Part shown: in pieces, positions 9,444-54,954 of the stretch
Layout of the letters: every line of letters begins with the position of its first letter
Position numbering within the stretch: position 1 is the first letter of the stretch
Source of the DNA: a virus
Taxonomy: Duplodnaviria > Heunggongvirae > Uroviricota > Caudoviricetes
IMG/VR virus record: IMGVR_UViG_3300035660_000003
Span: 22,261 to 86,260 of that record
Direction: 5' to 3' (one strand)
Length of the DNA stretch: 64,000 nucleotides
Translations under genes and position numbers: made by a program
Notes under the pieces: model-generated
The model's database searches: none
Told to the model about the DNA's origin: nothing
The model's input: the letters and a program-made list of their open reading frames with translations, nothing else

Positions 9444-9941
9444 ATGCCATTTAAAGATAAGAAATACGAAAAGAGCTATAAACACGGTTACTATTTGAAA
9501 AATAAGGCTAAAATCTTGCCTAACGTAAAAGATTATTACCGTAAAAATAAAACTCAAATTCTCATAAAAACAAAACAATATCGGTTAAAAAGTATGGATA
9601 AAATTAAGGCTTATTCTCAGAAAATCAAACTTAAAGCCTTACAAATTGTAAGCTATTCAGAAAAACCATTATGCGTTAATTGTGGTTGTGCAGATTTAAG
9701 AATCTTAGAAATTAATCACGTAAACCTTAACGGTTCTAAGGAATTAAAAACCTCTAAAAATGGCTTTAAATATAAAGGTAGGTCTTCCAGAAGCCTCTTT
9801 TTTGAAATAATCAATAAAAATCGCCCCGTTTCCGATTTAGAGGTCACTTGTAAGGTTTGCAACACAAAACATTATGTTGAAAAGAAATTTGGATTAAAAT
9901 TTAAGGTTGAATTTTTGCCAGAAAAAGAAAAAGGGGTTTAG
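9444..9941 (+). CDS. HNH (His-Me finger) endonuclease-like, K/Y-rich N-terminal repeats
   Basis: CVNCGC...EINHVN...CKVCNTKH; TATA-like box 9400-9413. Confidence 0.6.
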   Translation: MPFKDKKYEKSYKHGYYLKNKAKILPNVKDYYRKNKTQILIKTKQYRLKSMDKIKAYSQKIKLKALQIVSYSEKPLCVNCGCADLRILEINHVNLNGSKELKTSKNGFKYKGRSSRSLFFEIINKNRPVSDLEVTCKVCNTKHYVEKKFGLKFKVEFLPEKEKGV

Positions 9942-10234
9942 ATTAGGAACGATTCATTATTCACGGCAACCATTTGACTCGTTTGCTTCGTTGCGGTCTT
10001 AATTTGCTTTAGAATCGGGATTAAAAGCGGTTTCATGCGTTTAAGCGTCGAATTGACATAAATTAGGTATATATCGGTTTTTTCAACCCAAATCGTGTCG
10101 CTTTCTTTCCAATAACCCCGATTATGGTTTATTTCGGTAAGTCCGCCGCAGAGGTCAATTAAGGCTTTTTTTGCCGAATCGAGCATTTTTAAATCCTCTT
10201 TTTCCGAATGCGTCACGAATATTTCAATTCTCAT
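9938..10234 (-). CDS. hypothetical protein
   Basis: 98-aa ORF, terminal gene of MoxR/vWA operon direction. Confidence 0.5.
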   Translation of the reverse strand: MRIEIFVTHSEKEDLKMLDSAKKALIDLCGGLTEINHNRGYWKESDTIWVEKTDIYLIYVNSTLKRMKPLLIPILKQIKTATKQTSQMVAVNNESFLI

Positions 10235-10261
10235 TCAAATCACCTCTTTTCGAGTTTCTTT

Positions 10262-11932
10262 TTACTTTTGAAGGCTTAAATAAACCTCTAAGAATTTTTC
10301 GGGCAGCTCGTGGACCGATTTTATATTGGTTCGCTTAATTATCCCTTTTACATTAGCAGCGAAAGTTTTTACGTTTGCACAATTGCAAAAGCCTATAAAA
10401 ATCATGTCGATTTGTGCCTTACTGTATAATTTGATTAAATCCAATGCTTTATCCTCATCACCAAACTCAAAATCGCTTGCGATTATGAGGATTTTATGCC
10501 TATCGGGGTTCGCTTTATTGAACATTTTAAGAAACGATGCTAAATTAACACTTATTTCCGTTCCGCTTGCTGAAACTCCGATATTTCCGATTCTAGCCCT
10601 CGTATTAGCGAACGTTTCGAAAAAGCCCTTAATTTTCTGGCTATTTTCGCCAAATACCGCAATTGCAAACCCTAAATCATCTACGTAGTTACCGAACACC
10701 TCATTTAATATTGTTGTTATGTCTAACGCTTGCGTTCTATCTACTGAACCGCTAAAGTCAAATAGAAAACCTAAACAAACTTGCTCTTTTTCGAATCTTA
10801 CGGAGTTGTTCAAATAGACGTTTTTAACTTCACTTCTAAAGCTATTTGCGTATGCTCTAGCGGTTAAAGGTGACATGAATTTGCCCCGTTTTTGGAAAAT
10901 CTCCCTCTTAAAGCGTGGCTTTAGGTGAATCTTCAGTTTATTGAGCAATTTGGTTATTTCAGCCTTATTCTTATCCACTAATCGGGAATATTCCGCAAAA
11001 TCGGGTTCTGGTGTCGGAATCTCCTCGCCCGTGCCTTCGCCAGCCGAACCGCCTTTCAAAAGGTCTTCGATTAGCTCTTGTGCCTTATCCTTAGCCTCTT
11101 TTAACTCTTCCTCTTTGATTTGTGCCATTAAAGCGTTTTTAAGTGCGTCGGAAAGCTGTCCTTTGAAATCCCCCCCTCTGCGTGACGGAATCAGCATTTT
11201 AAGGCTAAATTCATTAGATTTATCGCAGAATGGTTCGATTAAATAATATATGTCTTCTACTGCTTTTAATATGTCTATTTTTAGACGCATATACTTCGTA
11301 TTTTCCAATATTTCTAAAGCCTTATTTGTAGCCTCTTTTGCCAAATCAGACATTTTTTGGGTTATCTCCGTGACATCCGCCTCATATAAGCCTTTATCGC
11401 ACAAAACACCCATGATTAGAGGTGCTTCGCCAAATTTAAGCTCAATGGGTTGTCGTTTGTTCTTTAAAGACGTTTCAATAGTGTCTTTTAGGATAAGATT
11501 CGCTAATTGTAGCCTTTTTCCTAAATCAAGCCTAAATCTAATTTCCCCAAAATAGTTTATTCGCTTATCTTCTACAAGATTTATAATGTGTTTAGCCAAT
11601 TCAACCGAACCCTTTTTATTTTGAATTCGTGTTGCAAAATTGTTTAAACTATGCCAAATTGGTTTTGTTAAAGTGTCGTGTAAAGATTCGTGCAATAAGT
11701 CACCATCTAGAACTTTTTTAGCTAATCGTTCGGTTTTTAGAACGAATTCTGGATAAGGGGCAAGAGATAAGGTTATATCGTCGGTTTCGGGGTTAAAAAA
11801 GCTCGTTTGGGCGTTTGCGTCATATTTCACACCTATTTTGTCATCTTTAGTTATGGTTAAAGCTAAATTCCGCAAATTGTCTAATTGTTCACTAAAGTTT
11901 GCATTTTTACCATTTTTTTGTTTATTTTTCAT
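10262..11932 (-). CDS. von Willebrand factor A (vWA) domain protein
   Basis: C-terminal MIDAS motif FDFSGSV (DxSxS); 556 aa; partner of MoxR ATPase upstream. Confidence 0.75.
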   Translation of the reverse strand: MKNKQKNGKNANFSEQLDNLRNLALTITKDDKIGVKYDANAQTSFFNPETDDITLSLAPYPEFVLKTERLAKKVLDGDLLHESLHDTLTKPIWHSLNNFATRIQNKKGSVELAKHIINLVEDKRINYFGEIRFRLDLGKRLQLANLILKDTIETSLKNKRQPIELKFGEAPLIMGVLCDKGLYEADVTEITQKMSDLAKEATNKALEILENTKYMRLKIDILKAVEDIYYLIEPFCDKSNEFSLKMLIPSRRGGDFKGQLSDALKNALMAQIKEEELKEAKDKAQELIEDLLKGGSAGEGTGEEIPTPEPDFAEYSRLVDKNKAEITKLLNKLKIHLKPRFKREIFQKRGKFMSPLTARAYANSFRSEVKNVYLNNSVRFEKEQVCLGFLFDFSGSVDRTQALDITTILNEVFGNYVDDLGFAIAVFGENSQKIKGFFETFANTRARIGNIGVSASGTEISVNLASFLKMFNKANPDRHKILIIASDFEFGDEDKALDLIKLYSKAQIDMIFIGFCNCANVKTFAANVKGIIKRTNIKSVHELPEKFLEVYLSLQK

Positions 11933-11980
11933 TTTTCAAACCTCTTTATTGTTTTTTTTACACAAGAAAATAGGGAAGAT

Positions 11981-54208: not shown

Positions 54209-54410
54209 CCTCTAAGCTAACAGTTCCTATACCGCCTTTGGTTCTGCCTTTTCGTTTACGAGTCATCCATTCGTCTTTTTCTTCATGTCCAATTGTTTCC
54301 CGTGCTGGACATTTTTCTGGCATATCTTGCAATGACAACAGACAAGAACCATCACTAGCAAGATAGTTACATGGTTCACCATTATTTACAGTTTCACATC
54401 TTTTCGGCAT
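54201..54410 (-). CDS. small Cys-containing protein
   Basis: 69 aa; promoter 54448-54464. Confidence 0.45.
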   Translation of the reverse strand: MPKRCETVNNGEPCNYLASDGSCLLSLQDMPEKCPARETIGHEEKDEWMTRKRKGRTKGGIGTVSLEDV

Positions 54411-54447
54411 ATTTTCACCTTCTAGTAAATTATAATTTCACACCGAC

Positions 54448-54464
54448 CTATTTAAACTTTGCTG
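54448..54464 (-). promoter_or_regulatory. consensus promoter overlapping 3' end of HNH gene
   Basis: ctatttaaactttgctg. Confidence 0.5.
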
Positions 54465-54954
54465 TTTTCTTGCCATTCTTCCAATCTTCTGGACTCATTC
54501 TAGGACGACCACCTGCTCCCCTTTCATTATTTTCAAATCGTTTTGTCCAATTACAGTTAGCACAAAGAAGCTGATAATCTTTAGAGCCAGACTTAATCTC
54601 CATAAGAATACCACGATAATAACTACTTCCACTATCATGTCCATTACTTGAACGCTTTTTTTGTTTACCATTTCCATGAATGTGGTCTATTTGAAGACAA
54701 CGAATATCTGTGCAACCATTAGGAACTAAACAATTTGAATTAGAACATTTATTACCTAGCAATGCAAAAAGTTTTGATTTAATTTTTATTCTTTGATTTC
54801 TTGCAGATTTTCTTGCCAATTCACGATACCTTTCCAAATGATTTTTTCTCCAATTTCTATTAATCTCATACCTTCTAGCTTTGTTTATTGGGTCTGACCA
54901 ATATTTTTTCCAATATTCTCTTCTCTTTTTAGAGACTTTTCTCTTTTTATTCAT
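54448..54954 (-). CDS. HNH endonuclease with R/K/W-rich N-terminus
   Basis: DHIHGNG...LLCANCNWTK. Confidence 0.7.
   Translation of the reverse strand: MNKKRKVSKKRREYWKKYWSDPINKARRYEINRNWRKNHLERYRELARKSARNQRIKIKSKLFALLGNKCSNSNCLVPNGCTDIRCLQIDHIHGNGKQKKRSSNGHDSGSSYYRGILMEIKSGSKDYQLLCANCNWTKRFENNERGAGGRPRMSPEDWKNGKKTAKFK

What the first reader, a model, noticed from the sequence alone, without database searches (positions are those of the whole stretch)
9444..54954. Seven paralogous HNH nuclease genes with basic/aromatic N-terminal repeats, mostly as solitary units
The ORFs at 9444, 16955, 20459, 22537, 24183, 28094 and 54448 share a C-terminal His-Me finger (CxxCG...[HY]HEIHGK.H...LCxxCH..H; the 54448 copy has DHIHGNG...CANCN). 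Each also has an N-terminal K/R/Y/W-rich region made of short repeats. ORF 24183 carries six ~11-aa KxYxxxHKEQ units. I do not recognise this domain combination. An eighth, unrelated HTH-HNH nuclease (37994) and a LAGLIDADG gene (45184) bring the window to nine nuclease genes, consistent with homing-endonuclease proliferation.
Basis: partly seen in the sequence, partly recalled or inferred. Interest (0 to 1): 0.6.

Follow-up and report, generated by a model that had tools for sequence, protein, structure and literature searches.

The report
Free-standing HNH nuclease genes, virus genome
An uncultured virus carries nine small, self-contained nuclease genes, seven of them an uncharacterised HNH type with a basic 15-residue helical repeat, that look like selfish homing endonucleases: a known phenomenon, here in an undescribed protein family.

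Summary
The seven ORFs exist at the stated coordinates. All keep a zinc-finger HNH (His-Me finger) core behind a very basic N-terminal helical region.

Two corrections:
- They are not seven equal paralogs. Five (16955, 20459, 22537, 24183, 28094) form one tight family with the motif G..C..CG…[FY]HEIHGK.H…DF.PLC..[CH]H…H. The other two (9444, 54448) form a distant second subtype.
- The repeat unit is 15 aa (45 nt), not 11.

The domain combination is not unique:
- A profile search finds 709 protein clusters at E<=1e-10 with the same architecture, all unnamed metagenomic proteins.
- Pfam does not capture the family.
- The same 15-aa repeat is fused to other HNH types in cultured phages.

Evidence for mobile, free-standing homing-type genes:
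- Eight of the nine nuclease genes have their own promoter-like motif.
- Three lie antisense to their neighbours.
- All nine have low GC.
- The closest relative of each lies outside this genome.
- A close relative (89% identical ATPase) lacks all seven nuclease genes in the shared region.
- The 16955 cassette sits beside an orphaned copy of its neighbour's original 3' end.

Cleavage, target sites and the role of the repeat are inferred, not shown. Nuclease proliferation in phages is well known, so this is a new variant of a known kind and of moderate interest.

The parts
9444..9941 (+). HNH gene, second subtype (C..CG…LEINH…about 30-aa insert…D….C..CN). N-terminus MPFKDKKYE… with 15-aa periodicity. 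Antisense to the neighbouring genes; its 3' end overlaps the gene at 9938-10234 by 4 bp.
   Evidence: lag 15, z=4.7; BLASTP 3e-12 to 54448; N-terminus 33-44% identical to core-family members P0042 and P0138
9397..9411 (+). Promoter-like motif GATAAGTTTTAAATA, 32 nt upstream of the 9444 start codon. A palindrome lies at 9327-9344.
16955..17344 (+). Core-family HNH gene (129 aa). Antisense; its 3' end overlaps the 3' end of gene 17325-17720 by 20 bp.
   Evidence: E 3e-37; absent from L004
16906..16920 (+). Promoter-like motif CATAAGACTTATAGG inside the inserted cassette.
16825..16864 (-). Orphaned copy of the original 3' end of gene 17325-17720. It encodes …RIGEKVKVILI** and is 92.5% identical to the true gene end in relative L004 (17779-17818). 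This is the insertion scar that bounds the 16955 cassette.
20459..20944 (+). Core-family HNH gene with an extra N-terminal zinc ribbon (YCVRCN…CSKKC) and the LCNNHH variant. Antisense; overlaps the 3' end of 20936-21802 by 9 bp. The likely true start is the ATG at 20471.
   Evidence: P0009; E 6e-31; absent from L004; the boundary is the palindrome at 20404-20421
20423..20437 (+). Promoter-like motif CATAAGTTTTAAATA (perfect match), directly after the palindrome at 20404-20421.
22537..22905 (-). Core-family HNH gene (122 aa, HNIKLTK variant) inside a conserved, palindrome-rich non-coding region of about 1.8 kb.
   Evidence: E 1e-38; absent from L004; best relative P0150 shares the variant
22936..22950 (-). 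Promoter-like motif CATAAAACTTATATA (perfect match) upstream of 22537-22905.
24183..24746 (-). Core-family HNH gene with six 15-aa repeat units (residues 8-97). It is the only nuclease gene without its own promoter-like motif and overlaps the upstream small ORF 24730-24897.
   Evidence: AF2 pLDDT 91.4; E 1e-40; absent from L004 and L005
28094..28471 (-). Core-family HNH gene (125 aa, minimal N-terminal arm), next to the ATP-dependent DNA ligase gene 27383-28048.
   Evidence: E 8e-39; AF2 pLDDT 90.6, pTM 0.70; absent from L004
28508..28522 (-). Promoter-like motif CATAAAATTTAAATA (perfect match). A palindrome lies at 28587-28604.
54448..54954 (-). HNH gene, second subtype (…LQIDHIHGNG…insert…DYQLLCANCN).
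   Evidence: hhalign 92% to the core family; 32% identical homolog in the otherwise unrelated viral contig L002
54988..55002 (-). Promoter-like motif CATAAGACTTAAATA (perfect match) upstream of 54448-54954.
37994..38524 (-). Unrelated HTH + HNH_3 nuclease gene, with a promoter-like motif at 38547-38561. Absent from L004.
   Evidence: (PF13392, 3.4e-14)
45184..45639 (-). LAGLIDADG + HTH nuclease gene, with a promoter-like motif at 45677-45691 and a palindrome at 45744-45761. Absent from L004.

Best explanation
These are free-standing, homing-type (selfish) HNH endonuclease genes in the early/replication region of an uncultured tailed virus.

Each is a small autonomous cassette of a promoter-like element plus one ORF. 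The protein has two parts:
- A strongly basic N-terminal arm of long alpha-helices built from one to six 15-residue units, sometimes preceded by a zinc ribbon.
- A C-terminal beta-beta-alpha-metal nuclease stabilised by a CxxC…Cxx[C/H] zinc site.

Proposed mechanism:
1. The basic helical arm binds DNA and gives the nuclease an extended, tolerant recognition site.
2. The HNH core nicks or cuts a related co-infecting genome that lacks the gene, near the insertion point.
3. Recombinational repair from the gene-carrying genome copies the cassette in, together with flanking sequence.

What is shown: the fold and residue conservation, the helical and 15-aa nature of the arm, the autonomy of the cassettes, their presence/absence among relatives, and one insertion scar.

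What is inferred: DNA binding by the arm, cleavage activity and target sites, and homing as opposed to another mode of gene gain.
For: **Nuclease identity**
- Invariant C, C, H, H, (D), C, H, H columns across 21 and 99 family members.
- Weak but consistent hits to HNH PHROGs and to Pfam HNH, NinG, DUF968 and HNHc_6.
- AF2 models at pLDDT 91 and 90.6 with a beta-beta-alpha core.
- The Foldseek BFVD list is almost entirely viral HNH endonucleases at probability about 1.
- The top Foldseek PDB hits are all HNH nucleases (Cap5, Cas5-HNH, IscB, McrA, Ref), though none is significant.

**Arm**
- 15-aa period.
- Predicted long helices that break at unit boundaries.
- Net charge +9 to +27.
- The same repeat is joined to PF01844 HNH, to other HNH variants and, at the C-terminus, to NUMOD4+HNH_3. 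It therefore behaves as a separable nuclease-associated module.

**Mobility**
- L004 (ATPase 89% identical, syntenic over window 15.2-47.7 kb) has none of the seven nuclease genes that fall in that interval, and has one core-type HNH elsewhere.
- L005 lacks 24183.
- An orphaned gene end at 16825-16864 flanks the 16955 cassette.
- Eight of the nine genes are preceded by the CATAAR-N-YTTAWATA motif; five of the eight perfect copies in the window are in front of nuclease genes.
- Three genes are antisense to all their neighbours.
- GC is 0.29 against 0.351 for 107 other genes, p=1.6e-5.
- Each core paralog is closer (40-46% identity) to proteins from other contigs than to its window paralogs (28-40%).
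- The unrelated viral contig L002 shares only these two HNH subtypes with the window.
- Viruses L011 and L014 carry two to three such genes each, and L013 one or two. In the window, L011 and L013 one copy lies just downstream of the conserved KaiC-like ATPase gene.
- No family member with the motif was found in 185,579 species-representative genomes.

**Precedent**
- Multiple free-standing HNH genes with variable presence and marker exclusion in Skunavirus (PMC12724721).
- 23 homing endonucleases in phage CB7 and 15 in T4 (PMC7344957).
Against: - No cleavage, target site or homing event has been demonstrated.
- The region is generally plastic. Many non-nuclease small genes also differ between the window and L004, for example 28.0-34.1 kb.
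- Indel boundaries often fall at a repeated 18-bp palindrome. Cassette shuffling by recombination at these repeats could produce the same presence/absence pattern without any endonuclease action.
- Low GC is partly a consequence of the Lys-rich composition.
- For 9444 and 54448 no related genome covering the site could be obtained.
- ORF 24183 has no promoter-like motif of its own.
Confidence: 0.72

Rival explanations
1. The genes are passengers of recombinational cassette shuffling. The 18-bp palindrome and promoter elements that separate most small early genes act as recombination hot spots, as promoter-stem-loop cassettes do in T4-type phages. The HNH genes would then be gained and lost like any other accessory gene. 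Their nuclease would serve the virus, for example in host or competitor DNA degradation or in exclusion of co-infecting viruses, rather than its own spread.
For: - There are 31 palindrome copies against 0.46 expected, nearly all intergenic and conserved in L004.
- Window/L004 indel boundaries lie at palindromes.
- A 1-kb block in L004 that carries no HNH gene is flanked by 31-40-bp direct repeats.
- Non-nuclease genes are equally variable.
Against: - This does not explain why nine of the variable genes are nucleases from three homing-endonuclease families.
- It does not explain why unrelated viruses share only these genes.
- It does not explain why copies recur next to the conserved ATPase gene in three genomes.
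- The 16955 cassette carries a diverged replacement for the neighbour's 3' end, which is typical of co-conversion from a diverged donor.
- The two explanations are not exclusive.
Confidence: 0.17
2. They are recombination or packaging accessory nucleases of the Rap/NinG, P1 Ref or terminase-associated HNH kind. A basic N-terminal region plus an HNH core would act on branched DNA, on RecA-bound DNA or on concatemer ends, as a normal part of the viral life cycle.
For: - The architecture resembles lambda NinG/Rap (zinc ribbon, basic helical stretch, HNH-like core) and P1 Ref (basic N-terminus plus HNH core).
- ORF 22537 and 4 of 99 family members hit Pfam NinG weakly.
- P1 Ref appears in the Foldseek list.
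Against: - Lambda NinG against the family profile gives hhalign probability 4.5%.
- None of the genes lies next to terminase or portal genes.
- Seven diverged copies, dispensable in a close relative, do not fit a core function.
- No Pfam hit passes its gathering threshold.
Confidence: 0.07
3. The N-terminal 'repeats' are compositional artefacts of AT-rich, Lys-rich coding, and the ORFs are only superficially similar.
For: - The window is 35% GC and the genes are 27-32% GC.
- Three of the seven show no significant periodicity on their own.
Against: - The 15-aa period is significant against composition-preserving shuffles in 24183 and 9444 and across 128 independent clusters.
- The helices are predicted at pLDDT 90-98.
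- The repeat is conserved with position-specific residues in phages with very different GC content and hosts.
- The HMM E-values for the five core ORFs are 1e-31 to 1e-40.
Confidence: 0.02

Closest known systems
Free-standing HNH homing endonucleases of phages (T4 Mob proteins; I-HmuI-like HNH endonucleases of lactococcal Skunavirus, PMC12724721; the 21 HNH genes of Pectobacterium phage CB7, PMC7344957)
   Same: - Several diverged copies per genome.
- Intergenic, autonomous genes.
- Variable presence among close relatives.
- A His-Me finger catalytic core joined to a separate putative DNA-binding part.
- Placement near DNA-metabolism genes.
   Different: - The domain order is reversed. Here the putative DNA-binding arm is N-terminal and the zinc-finger HNH is C-terminal; in I-HmuI types the HNH is N-terminal and NUMOD-type modules follow.
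- The HNH is a distinct subfamily (HEIHGK.H…DF.PLC..CH…H, with Asp at the 'N' position) that Pfam HNH and HNH_3 do not detect at threshold.
- The arm is a 15-aa helical repeat, not a NUMOD or HTH.
- Activity is untested.
GenBank phage proteins with zinc ribbon + 15-aa repeats + HNH (phage f2b1 QIA28523, Bastillevirinae; Escherichia phage mEp013 gp24 WWQ70305; Flavobacterium phage elemoB QMP84897)
   Same: - The same N-terminal organisation: an optional zinc ribbon, then tandem units such as Y-R-E-x-N-K-E-K-I-x5, then a C-terminal His-Me finger.
- f2b1 hits PF01844 at 8.7e-10.
   Different: - Their nuclease cores belong to other HNH subtypes (DH…N…CxxCN or GHH…CH..H).
- tblastn similarity to ORF 24183 is only 25-37% and is driven by the repeat.
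- ORF 28094, which has a short arm, finds no GenBank phage match at all.
- None of these proteins is characterised.
Terminase-associated phage HNH endonucleases (GVE2 HNH, PDB 5h0o; HK97 gp74 type)
   Different: - Those proteins sit beside the terminase and portal genes, occur as a single copy per genome and are essential for cos cleavage.
- They have no basic repeat arm.
- Here there are seven copies in the early/replication region, all of those that could be checked being dispensable in a close relative.
Lambda NinG/Rap (PF05766) and P1 Ref
   Same: A zinc ribbon and/or basic N-terminal stretch followed by an HNH-like core. A few family members give weak Pfam NinG hits.
   Different: Profile comparison with lambda NinG is negative (probability 4.5%). 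Those are single-copy, structure- or RecA-dependent nucleases, not mobile genes.

Membership tests
HNH / His-Me finger nuclease superfamily | beta-beta-alpha-metal fold | tested here: met
   - AF2 models have strand-strand-helix at 134-137, 157-160 and 162-173 (ORF 24183) and at 62-66, 86-90 and 91-104 (ORF 28094), with pLDDT above 90.
- BFVD hits are HNH endonucleases at probability about 1.
HNH / His-Me finger nuclease superfamily | Conserved catalytic His at the end of strand 1, a polar residue (Asn/Asp) before strand 2, and a metal-binding His/Asn in the helix | tested here: met
   - H136, D156 and H165/H169 are invariant or near-invariant in 21 and 99 sequences.
- ORFs 9444 and 54448 have [ND]H … D … CxxCN.
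- Which His is the general base is inferred, not shown.
HNH / His-Me finger nuclease superfamily | Passes a curated family model (Pfam HNH PF01844 or a related model) at its gathering score | tested here: not met
   - The best hit is PF01844 at 13.9 bits against a cut-off of 21.4 (ORF 24183); the others score lower or do not hit.
- Only 2 of 99 family members hit PF01844 at E<=0.01.
- NCBIfam gives nothing.
- The family lies outside current curated models.
HNH / His-Me finger nuclease superfamily | Metal-dependent DNA cleavage | not testable with these tools
   Requires purified protein.
Free-standing homing endonuclease genes | Autonomous gene, not inside an intron or intein, located between host genes | tested here: met
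   - No Rfam intron was found.
- The ORFs are intergenic, and three are antisense.
- Eight of the nine have their own promoter-like motif.
Free-standing homing endonuclease genes | Sporadic presence/absence at the same locus among closely related genomes | tested here: met
   - L004 lacks 16955, 20459, 22537, 24183, 28094, 37994 and 45184 at the syntenic sites.
- L005 lacks 24183.
- Not testable for 9444 and 54448, because no relative covering those sites was retrieved.
Free-standing homing endonuclease genes | The enzyme cleaves the cassette-free allele near the insertion site, and the cassette-bearing allele is resistant | not testable with these tools
   The only indirect hint is that the neighbour's 3' end next to the 16955 cassette is a diverged replacement of the original, which survives as an orphan at 16825-16864.
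Free-standing homing endonuclease genes | Super-Mendelian inheritance or marker exclusion in mixed infection | not testable with these tools
   The virus is uncultured.
Lambda NinG/Rap family (PF05766) | Significant sequence or profile similarity to NinG | tested here: not met
   - hhalign of lambda NinG against the 99-sequence family profile gives probability 4.5%.
- The Pfam NinG hit of ORF 22537 is E 0.009, 16.3 bits against a cut-off of 25.4.
Terminase-associated HNH (HK97 gp74 / GVE2 type) | Gene adjacent to the terminase and portal genes, one copy per genome | tested here: not met
   The neighbours are a ligase, a KaiC-like ATPase and small early genes. There are seven copies.

The most novel reading that the evidence does not exclude
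The 15-residue basic/aromatic helical unit (about K-E-[KQ]-I-[RK]-E-Y-x-[KR]-K-Y-[YR]-x-x-[NH]) is an undescribed nuclease-associated modular DNA-binding repeat. Its copy number (1 to 10 or more) would set the length of the DNA site read. It has been recombined with at least four different His-Me finger cores, at either terminus. If each unit contacts a fixed step of DNA, it would be a new repeat-based recognition scaffold. In addition, the virus may infect an archaeon (BRE/TATA-like promoters, a Topo VI-A/Spo11-like Toprim protein, a KaiC/RadA-type ATPase). That would make this an unusually dense homing-endonuclease load for an archaeal virus.
Probability: 0.15. Interest if true: 0.7.

Novelty: new variant of a known kind. 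Interest (0 to 1): 0.42.

Why it matters
- **A gap in annotation.** This is a sizeable His-Me finger subfamily: at least 709 clusters at 50% identity, all from metagenomes. Curated models miss it, so homing-endonuclease load in uncultured viruses is probably under-counted.
- **An undescribed module.** The 15-aa helical repeat is a candidate DNA-binding or spacer module that recurs with several nuclease cores. It has no Pfam model and, as far as I could find, no published description.
- **A testable case.** The window together with relative L004 gives ready-made filled and empty sites, including one with an insertion scar. The cleavage specificity of five paralogs could therefore be tested directly.
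- **Concept.** Proliferation of free-standing HNH genes in viral genomes is already well documented.

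Tried and rejected
- **GenBank phages.** Megablast of 9-30 kb and tblastn of the 1232-aa protein found nothing, so the virus has no sequenced relative there.
- **tRNA and Rfam scans.** Nothing found, so there are no group I introns around the nuclease genes.
- **Sigma-70 promoter and terminator scan.** Fewer sites than in shuffles (55 against 74), so it is uninformative or the wrong promoter type.
- **NinG/Rap membership.** Rejected by hhalign.
- **PDB sequence search.** Nothing significant. 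The best hit is the 'nicking endonuclease' 9qgv at E 0.13, with a similar C.ICGS…H…D..TLC..HH..LH motif. A text search for that entry returned only unrelated papers.
- **Foldseek against PDB with the compact 28094 model.** No hit below E 0.25.
- **IMG/VR searches.** Scans with the ATPase and the 538-aa Toprim protein found no relatives.
- **GTDB search.** The first attempt with A3 failed for lack of a conserved stretch. The repeat with A4 found no confirmed relative.
- **Search with the repeat region alone.** Only three hits, because of the database-size E-value.
- **Degraded extra HNH copy at 14.7-15.3 kb.** This is opposite the HNH in L004. No copy was found.
- **Displaced gene end beside 20459.** None found; the neighbour's C-terminus is intact and colinear with L004.
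- **My first repeat HMM.** It was too narrowly seeded on His at position 15 and under-counted units in the other proteins. Family-wide autocorrelation was used instead.

Full report
**1. What is in the sequence**

The window is 35% GC. It comes from an uncultured virus: a JGI contig of 112,412 bp, also assembled as Logan SRR11721899_3753.
- There is no DNA match to GenBank phages, and the 1232-aa protein finds no match there either.
- Of ten large proteins scanned against PHROGs, only the 1232-aa protein and the KaiC-type ATPase gave hits, and those were weak.
- Weak tail and virion hits on the 1232-aa protein suggest a tailed virus.
- From about 9.9 kb onward, almost all genes are on the minus strand.
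- Recognisable neighbours are an AAA_5 ATPase, a KaiC-type ATPase, an ATP-dependent DNA ligase, a Band_7 protein, a papain-like protease, two DruA-like proteins, a Topo VI-A/Spo11-Toprim protein and an RNA ligase.

The HTH-HNH_3 gene at 37994 and the LAGLIDADG-HTH gene at 45184 are confirmed by Pfam.

**2. The C-terminal domain**

Five ORFs (16955, 20459, 22537, 24183, 28094) share G..C..CG…[FY]HEIHGK.H…YIL.H.(E)DF.PLC..[CH]H…H.
- With 16 metagenomic relatives, the invariant columns are G121, C124, C127, H136, H143, F157, C161, H165 and H169. D156 is near-invariant.
- The same columns hold in a 99-sequence alignment.
- D156 lies five residues before the second Cys pair, which is the position of the 'N' in canonical HNH.
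- Curated models miss the family. The best Pfam HNH score is 13.9 bits against a cut-off of 21.4. NCBIfam gives nothing. Only 2 of 99 members hit PF01844 at E<=0.01, with a few weak hits to NinG, DUF968 and HNHc_6, all of them His-Me finger families.
- PHROGs give weak hits to five 'HNH endonuclease' families. Some of these alignments also cover the N-terminal arm.

Structure prediction is confident: pLDDT 91.4 for 24183 and 90.6 with pTM 0.70 for 28094. Both models show a strand-strand-helix core.
- Foldseek against viral models returns almost only HNH endonucleases at probability about 1.
- Foldseek against PDB has no significant hit, but its list is Cap5, Cas5-HNH, IscB, McrA and Ref, which are all HNH nucleases.

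I conclude that these are His-Me finger nucleases with an intact active site and zinc site. They form a subfamily outside current models.

**3. Two subtypes, not seven equal paralogs**

- A profile of the core family scores the five ORFs at E 1e-31 to 1e-40. It scores 54448 and 9444 only marginally, and only over the N-terminal part.
- ORFs 9444 and 54448 are related to each other (30% identity, E 3e-12). They have [ND]H, an insert of about 30 aa, and CxxCN.
- ORF 54448 aligns to the whole core HNH by profile comparison (probability 92%).
- The N-terminus of 9444 (MPFKDKKYE…) is 33-44% identical to the N-termini of core-family members. The arm is therefore shared while the nuclease core differs.

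**4. The N-terminal region**

It is very basic: net charge +9 to +27 and pI of 10 or more.
- In 24183 the repeat period is 15 aa. Autocorrelation gives z 9.5 at lag 15 against composition-preserving shuffles. TRF finds a 45-bp DNA period.
- ORF 9444 is also significant on its own (z 4.7).
- Across 128 independent family members, lag 15 is the top lag in 58. Mean z is 2.37, with smaller peaks at 4, 7-8, 11 and 19. This pattern fits helices with about 3.75 residues per repeat turn.
- AF2 predicts long helices (5-51, 53-66, 68-96, 98-120) that break at unit boundaries.
- The repeats are therefore real and structured, not low complexity.

The same unit occurs in four other settings:
- Before a PF01844 HNH in the Bastillevirinae phage f2b1.
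- Before other HNH variants in E. coli phage mEp013 and Flavobacterium phage elemoB.
- After a NUMOD4+HNH_3 core in P0004.
- In three different HNH variants side by side in contig L014.

The repeat thus behaves as a separable nuclease-associated module. No Pfam model matches it. That it binds DNA is an inference from its charge and from the company it keeps. A spacer or oligomerisation role is not excluded.

**5. How common the family is**

- A profile search of 1.84 billion cluster representatives gives 3771 hits at E<=1e-3, 709 at 1e-10 and 22 at 1e-30. Nearly all are 105-230 aa with the same architecture. Many begin MPYKD…, and some have an extra zinc ribbon.
- The ten representatives checked are unnamed metagenomic singletons.
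- No confirmed relative with the [FY]HEIHGKxH motif exists in 185,579 species-representative genomes.
- ORF 28094 has no tblastn match in 50,697 GenBank phage records.
- The domain combination is therefore widespread but uncharacterised and apparently viral.

**6. Evidence that the genes are mobile**

*(a) Own promoter-like motif.* Eight of the nine nuclease genes are preceded, 20-45 nt upstream of the start codon, by CATAAR-N-YTTAWATA. This motif gives 33 matches against 14.5 expected, and five of its eight perfect copies sit in front of nuclease genes. ORF 24183 is the exception.

*(b) Orientation.* Three genes (9444, 16955, 20459) are antisense to every neighbour. Each abuts the 3' end of a minus-strand gene.

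*(c) Composition.* GC is 0.29 against 0.351 for 107 other genes (p 1.6e-5). The Lys-rich composition contributes to this.

*(d) Nearest relatives.* Each core paralog is closer to proteins from other contigs (40-46% identity) than to its window paralogs (28-40%). They are therefore not recent in-genome duplicates.

*(e) Absence from a close relative.* Contig Ga0315282_10000319 (L004) has an ATPase 89% identical and is syntenic with window 15.2-47.7 kb. It has none of 16955, 20459, 22537, 24183, 28094, 37994 or 45184 at the corresponding sites, and it has one core-type HNH elsewhere. L005 also lacks 24183.

*(f) An insertion scar.*
- In L004 the homolog of gene 17325-17720 ends …ERIGEKVKVILV*.
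- In the window that gene ends …KRNSKKVKVLLI*. It is followed by the antisense HNH cassette and then by an orphaned …RIGEKVKVILI** segment at 16825-16864.
- The orphan is 92.5% identical in DNA to the L004 gene end.
- The cassette therefore arrived with a diverged replacement for the neighbour's 3' end. This is what co-conversion from a diverged donor would leave.

*(g) Sharing across viruses.* The unrelated viral contig L002 shares only the two HNH subtypes with the window. More distant members of the same virus group also carry such genes: two to three each in L011 and L014, and one or two in L013. In the window, L011 and L013 one copy lies just downstream of the conserved KaiC-like ATPase gene.

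**7. Caveats**

- The whole region is plastic, and many non-nuclease genes also differ between the window and L004.
- Indel boundaries often coincide with an 18-bp perfect palindrome, ATTAATCAATTGATTAAT, present in 31 copies against 0.46 expected.
- Recombination at these repeats could move cassettes without endonuclease action. I rate this rival at 0.17 and note that it is compatible with homing.
- A Rap/Ref/terminase-type housekeeping role is unlikely. Lambda NinG does not match the family profile, there are seven copies, a close relative does without the five that could be checked, and none lies next to a terminase gene.
- Nothing about cleavage or targets has been shown.

**8. Comparison with what is known, and verdict**

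Proliferation of free-standing HNH genes is well documented: 268 across 89 Skunavirus genomes, with marker exclusion (PMC12724721), 21 HNH genes among 23 homing endonucleases in phage CB7, and 15 homing endonucleases in T4 (PMC7344957).

What differs here:
- The HNH subfamily is outside current models.
- The domain order is reversed relative to I-HmuI-like enzymes.
- The arm is a 15-aa helical repeat.
- The host may be an archaeon. Supporting hints are the BRE/TATA-like promoter motif, the lack of sigma-70 site enrichment, and the Topo VI-A-like, KaiC-type ATPase and ATP-ligase genes. The host is untested.

I classify the finding as a new variant of a known kind, with interest about 0.4.

Noticed in passing
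window 8391-56505 (31 sites; clusters at 15.4-23.6 kb, 28.6-34.1 kb, 45.0-46.8 kb, 56.4 kb); also L004 (20 sites), L011 (2 sites), L013 (1 site): An 18-bp perfect palindrome, ATTAATCAATTGATTAAT (core TTAATCAATTGATTAA), occurs 31 times at up to 3 mismatches against 0.46 expected. Nearly all copies are intergenic. It is often preceded by AAAAAG and followed about 10 nt later by TTTTGGAGTG and the start of a small gene. It is conserved in related viruses and often marks indel boundaries. It is probably an operator or promoter element of early genes and a recombination hot spot.
   Followed up: partly
window, e.g. 8318, 34575, 35476, 39480, 40982, 46035, 46716, 51428, 60177, 60710 (minus strand), plus the sites upstream of the nuclease genes: A second promoter-like motif, C-A-T-A-A-R-N-Y-T-T-A-W-A-T-A ('AAAGTTTAAATA'), lies 20-45 nt upstream of many start codons (33 matches against 14.5 expected). 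It resembles an archaeal BRE+TATA box. Sigma-70-type sites are not enriched (55 against 74 expected). Together with the Topo VI-A/Spo11-Toprim, KaiC-type ATPase and ATP-ligase genes, this raises the possibility of an archaeal host.
   Followed up: partly
window 22040-23890: A stretch of about 1.8 kb has no ORF of 60 aa or more apart from the inserted HNH 22537-22905, yet it is 72-82% identical in DNA to L004. It contains six palindrome copies and two small tandem repeats (28 nt x2 at 23770-23825; 23 nt x2 at 22384-22429). It may be a replication origin or regulatory hub.
   Followed up: partly
window 47333-48154 and 49392-50060 (minus strand): Two paralogous proteins match Pfam DruA (Druantia defence protein A domain; 4e-15 and 3.5e-22), which is unusual cargo for a virus.
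   Followed up: no
window 52592-54208 (minus strand): A 538-aa protein with a Topo VI subunit A/Spo11 Toprim domain (8.3e-9) has no PHROG match and no relative in IMG/VR.
   Followed up: no
window 39483-40247 (minus strand): A papain-family (C1) cysteine protease (2e-31) is encoded in the early region. The segment 39.2-41.8 kb that carries it is largely missing from relative L004.
   Followed up: no
L004 17779-17818 and 18846-18876: A 31-40-bp direct repeat, which is the 3' end of the 138-aa gene, flanks a block of about 1 kb holding five small genes. The block is present in L004 and absent from the window. This is a second example of cassette gain next to the same gene end, here without any nuclease gene.
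   Followed up: no
window 24730-24897 (minus strand); L005 1990-2184: A small Cys-rich ORF (…CYCSDTGDICNKENCPKY…) overlaps the start of HNH 24183. It is conserved in L005, where a membrane-protein gene follows it instead of the HNH. In L011 a 46-aa ORF similarly overlaps the start of the HNH downstream of the ATPase gene.
   Followed up: no
L014 3800-6008 (contig Ga0209521_10004516): Three adjacent genes (one on the plus strand, two on the minus strand) all have the basic 15-aa-repeat arm, but each has a different HNH core (HEIHGK type, LEFHH…CSNCH type, VHHID…CSNCH type). This shows that the arm recombines with several nuclease cores within one viral genome.
   Followed up: partly
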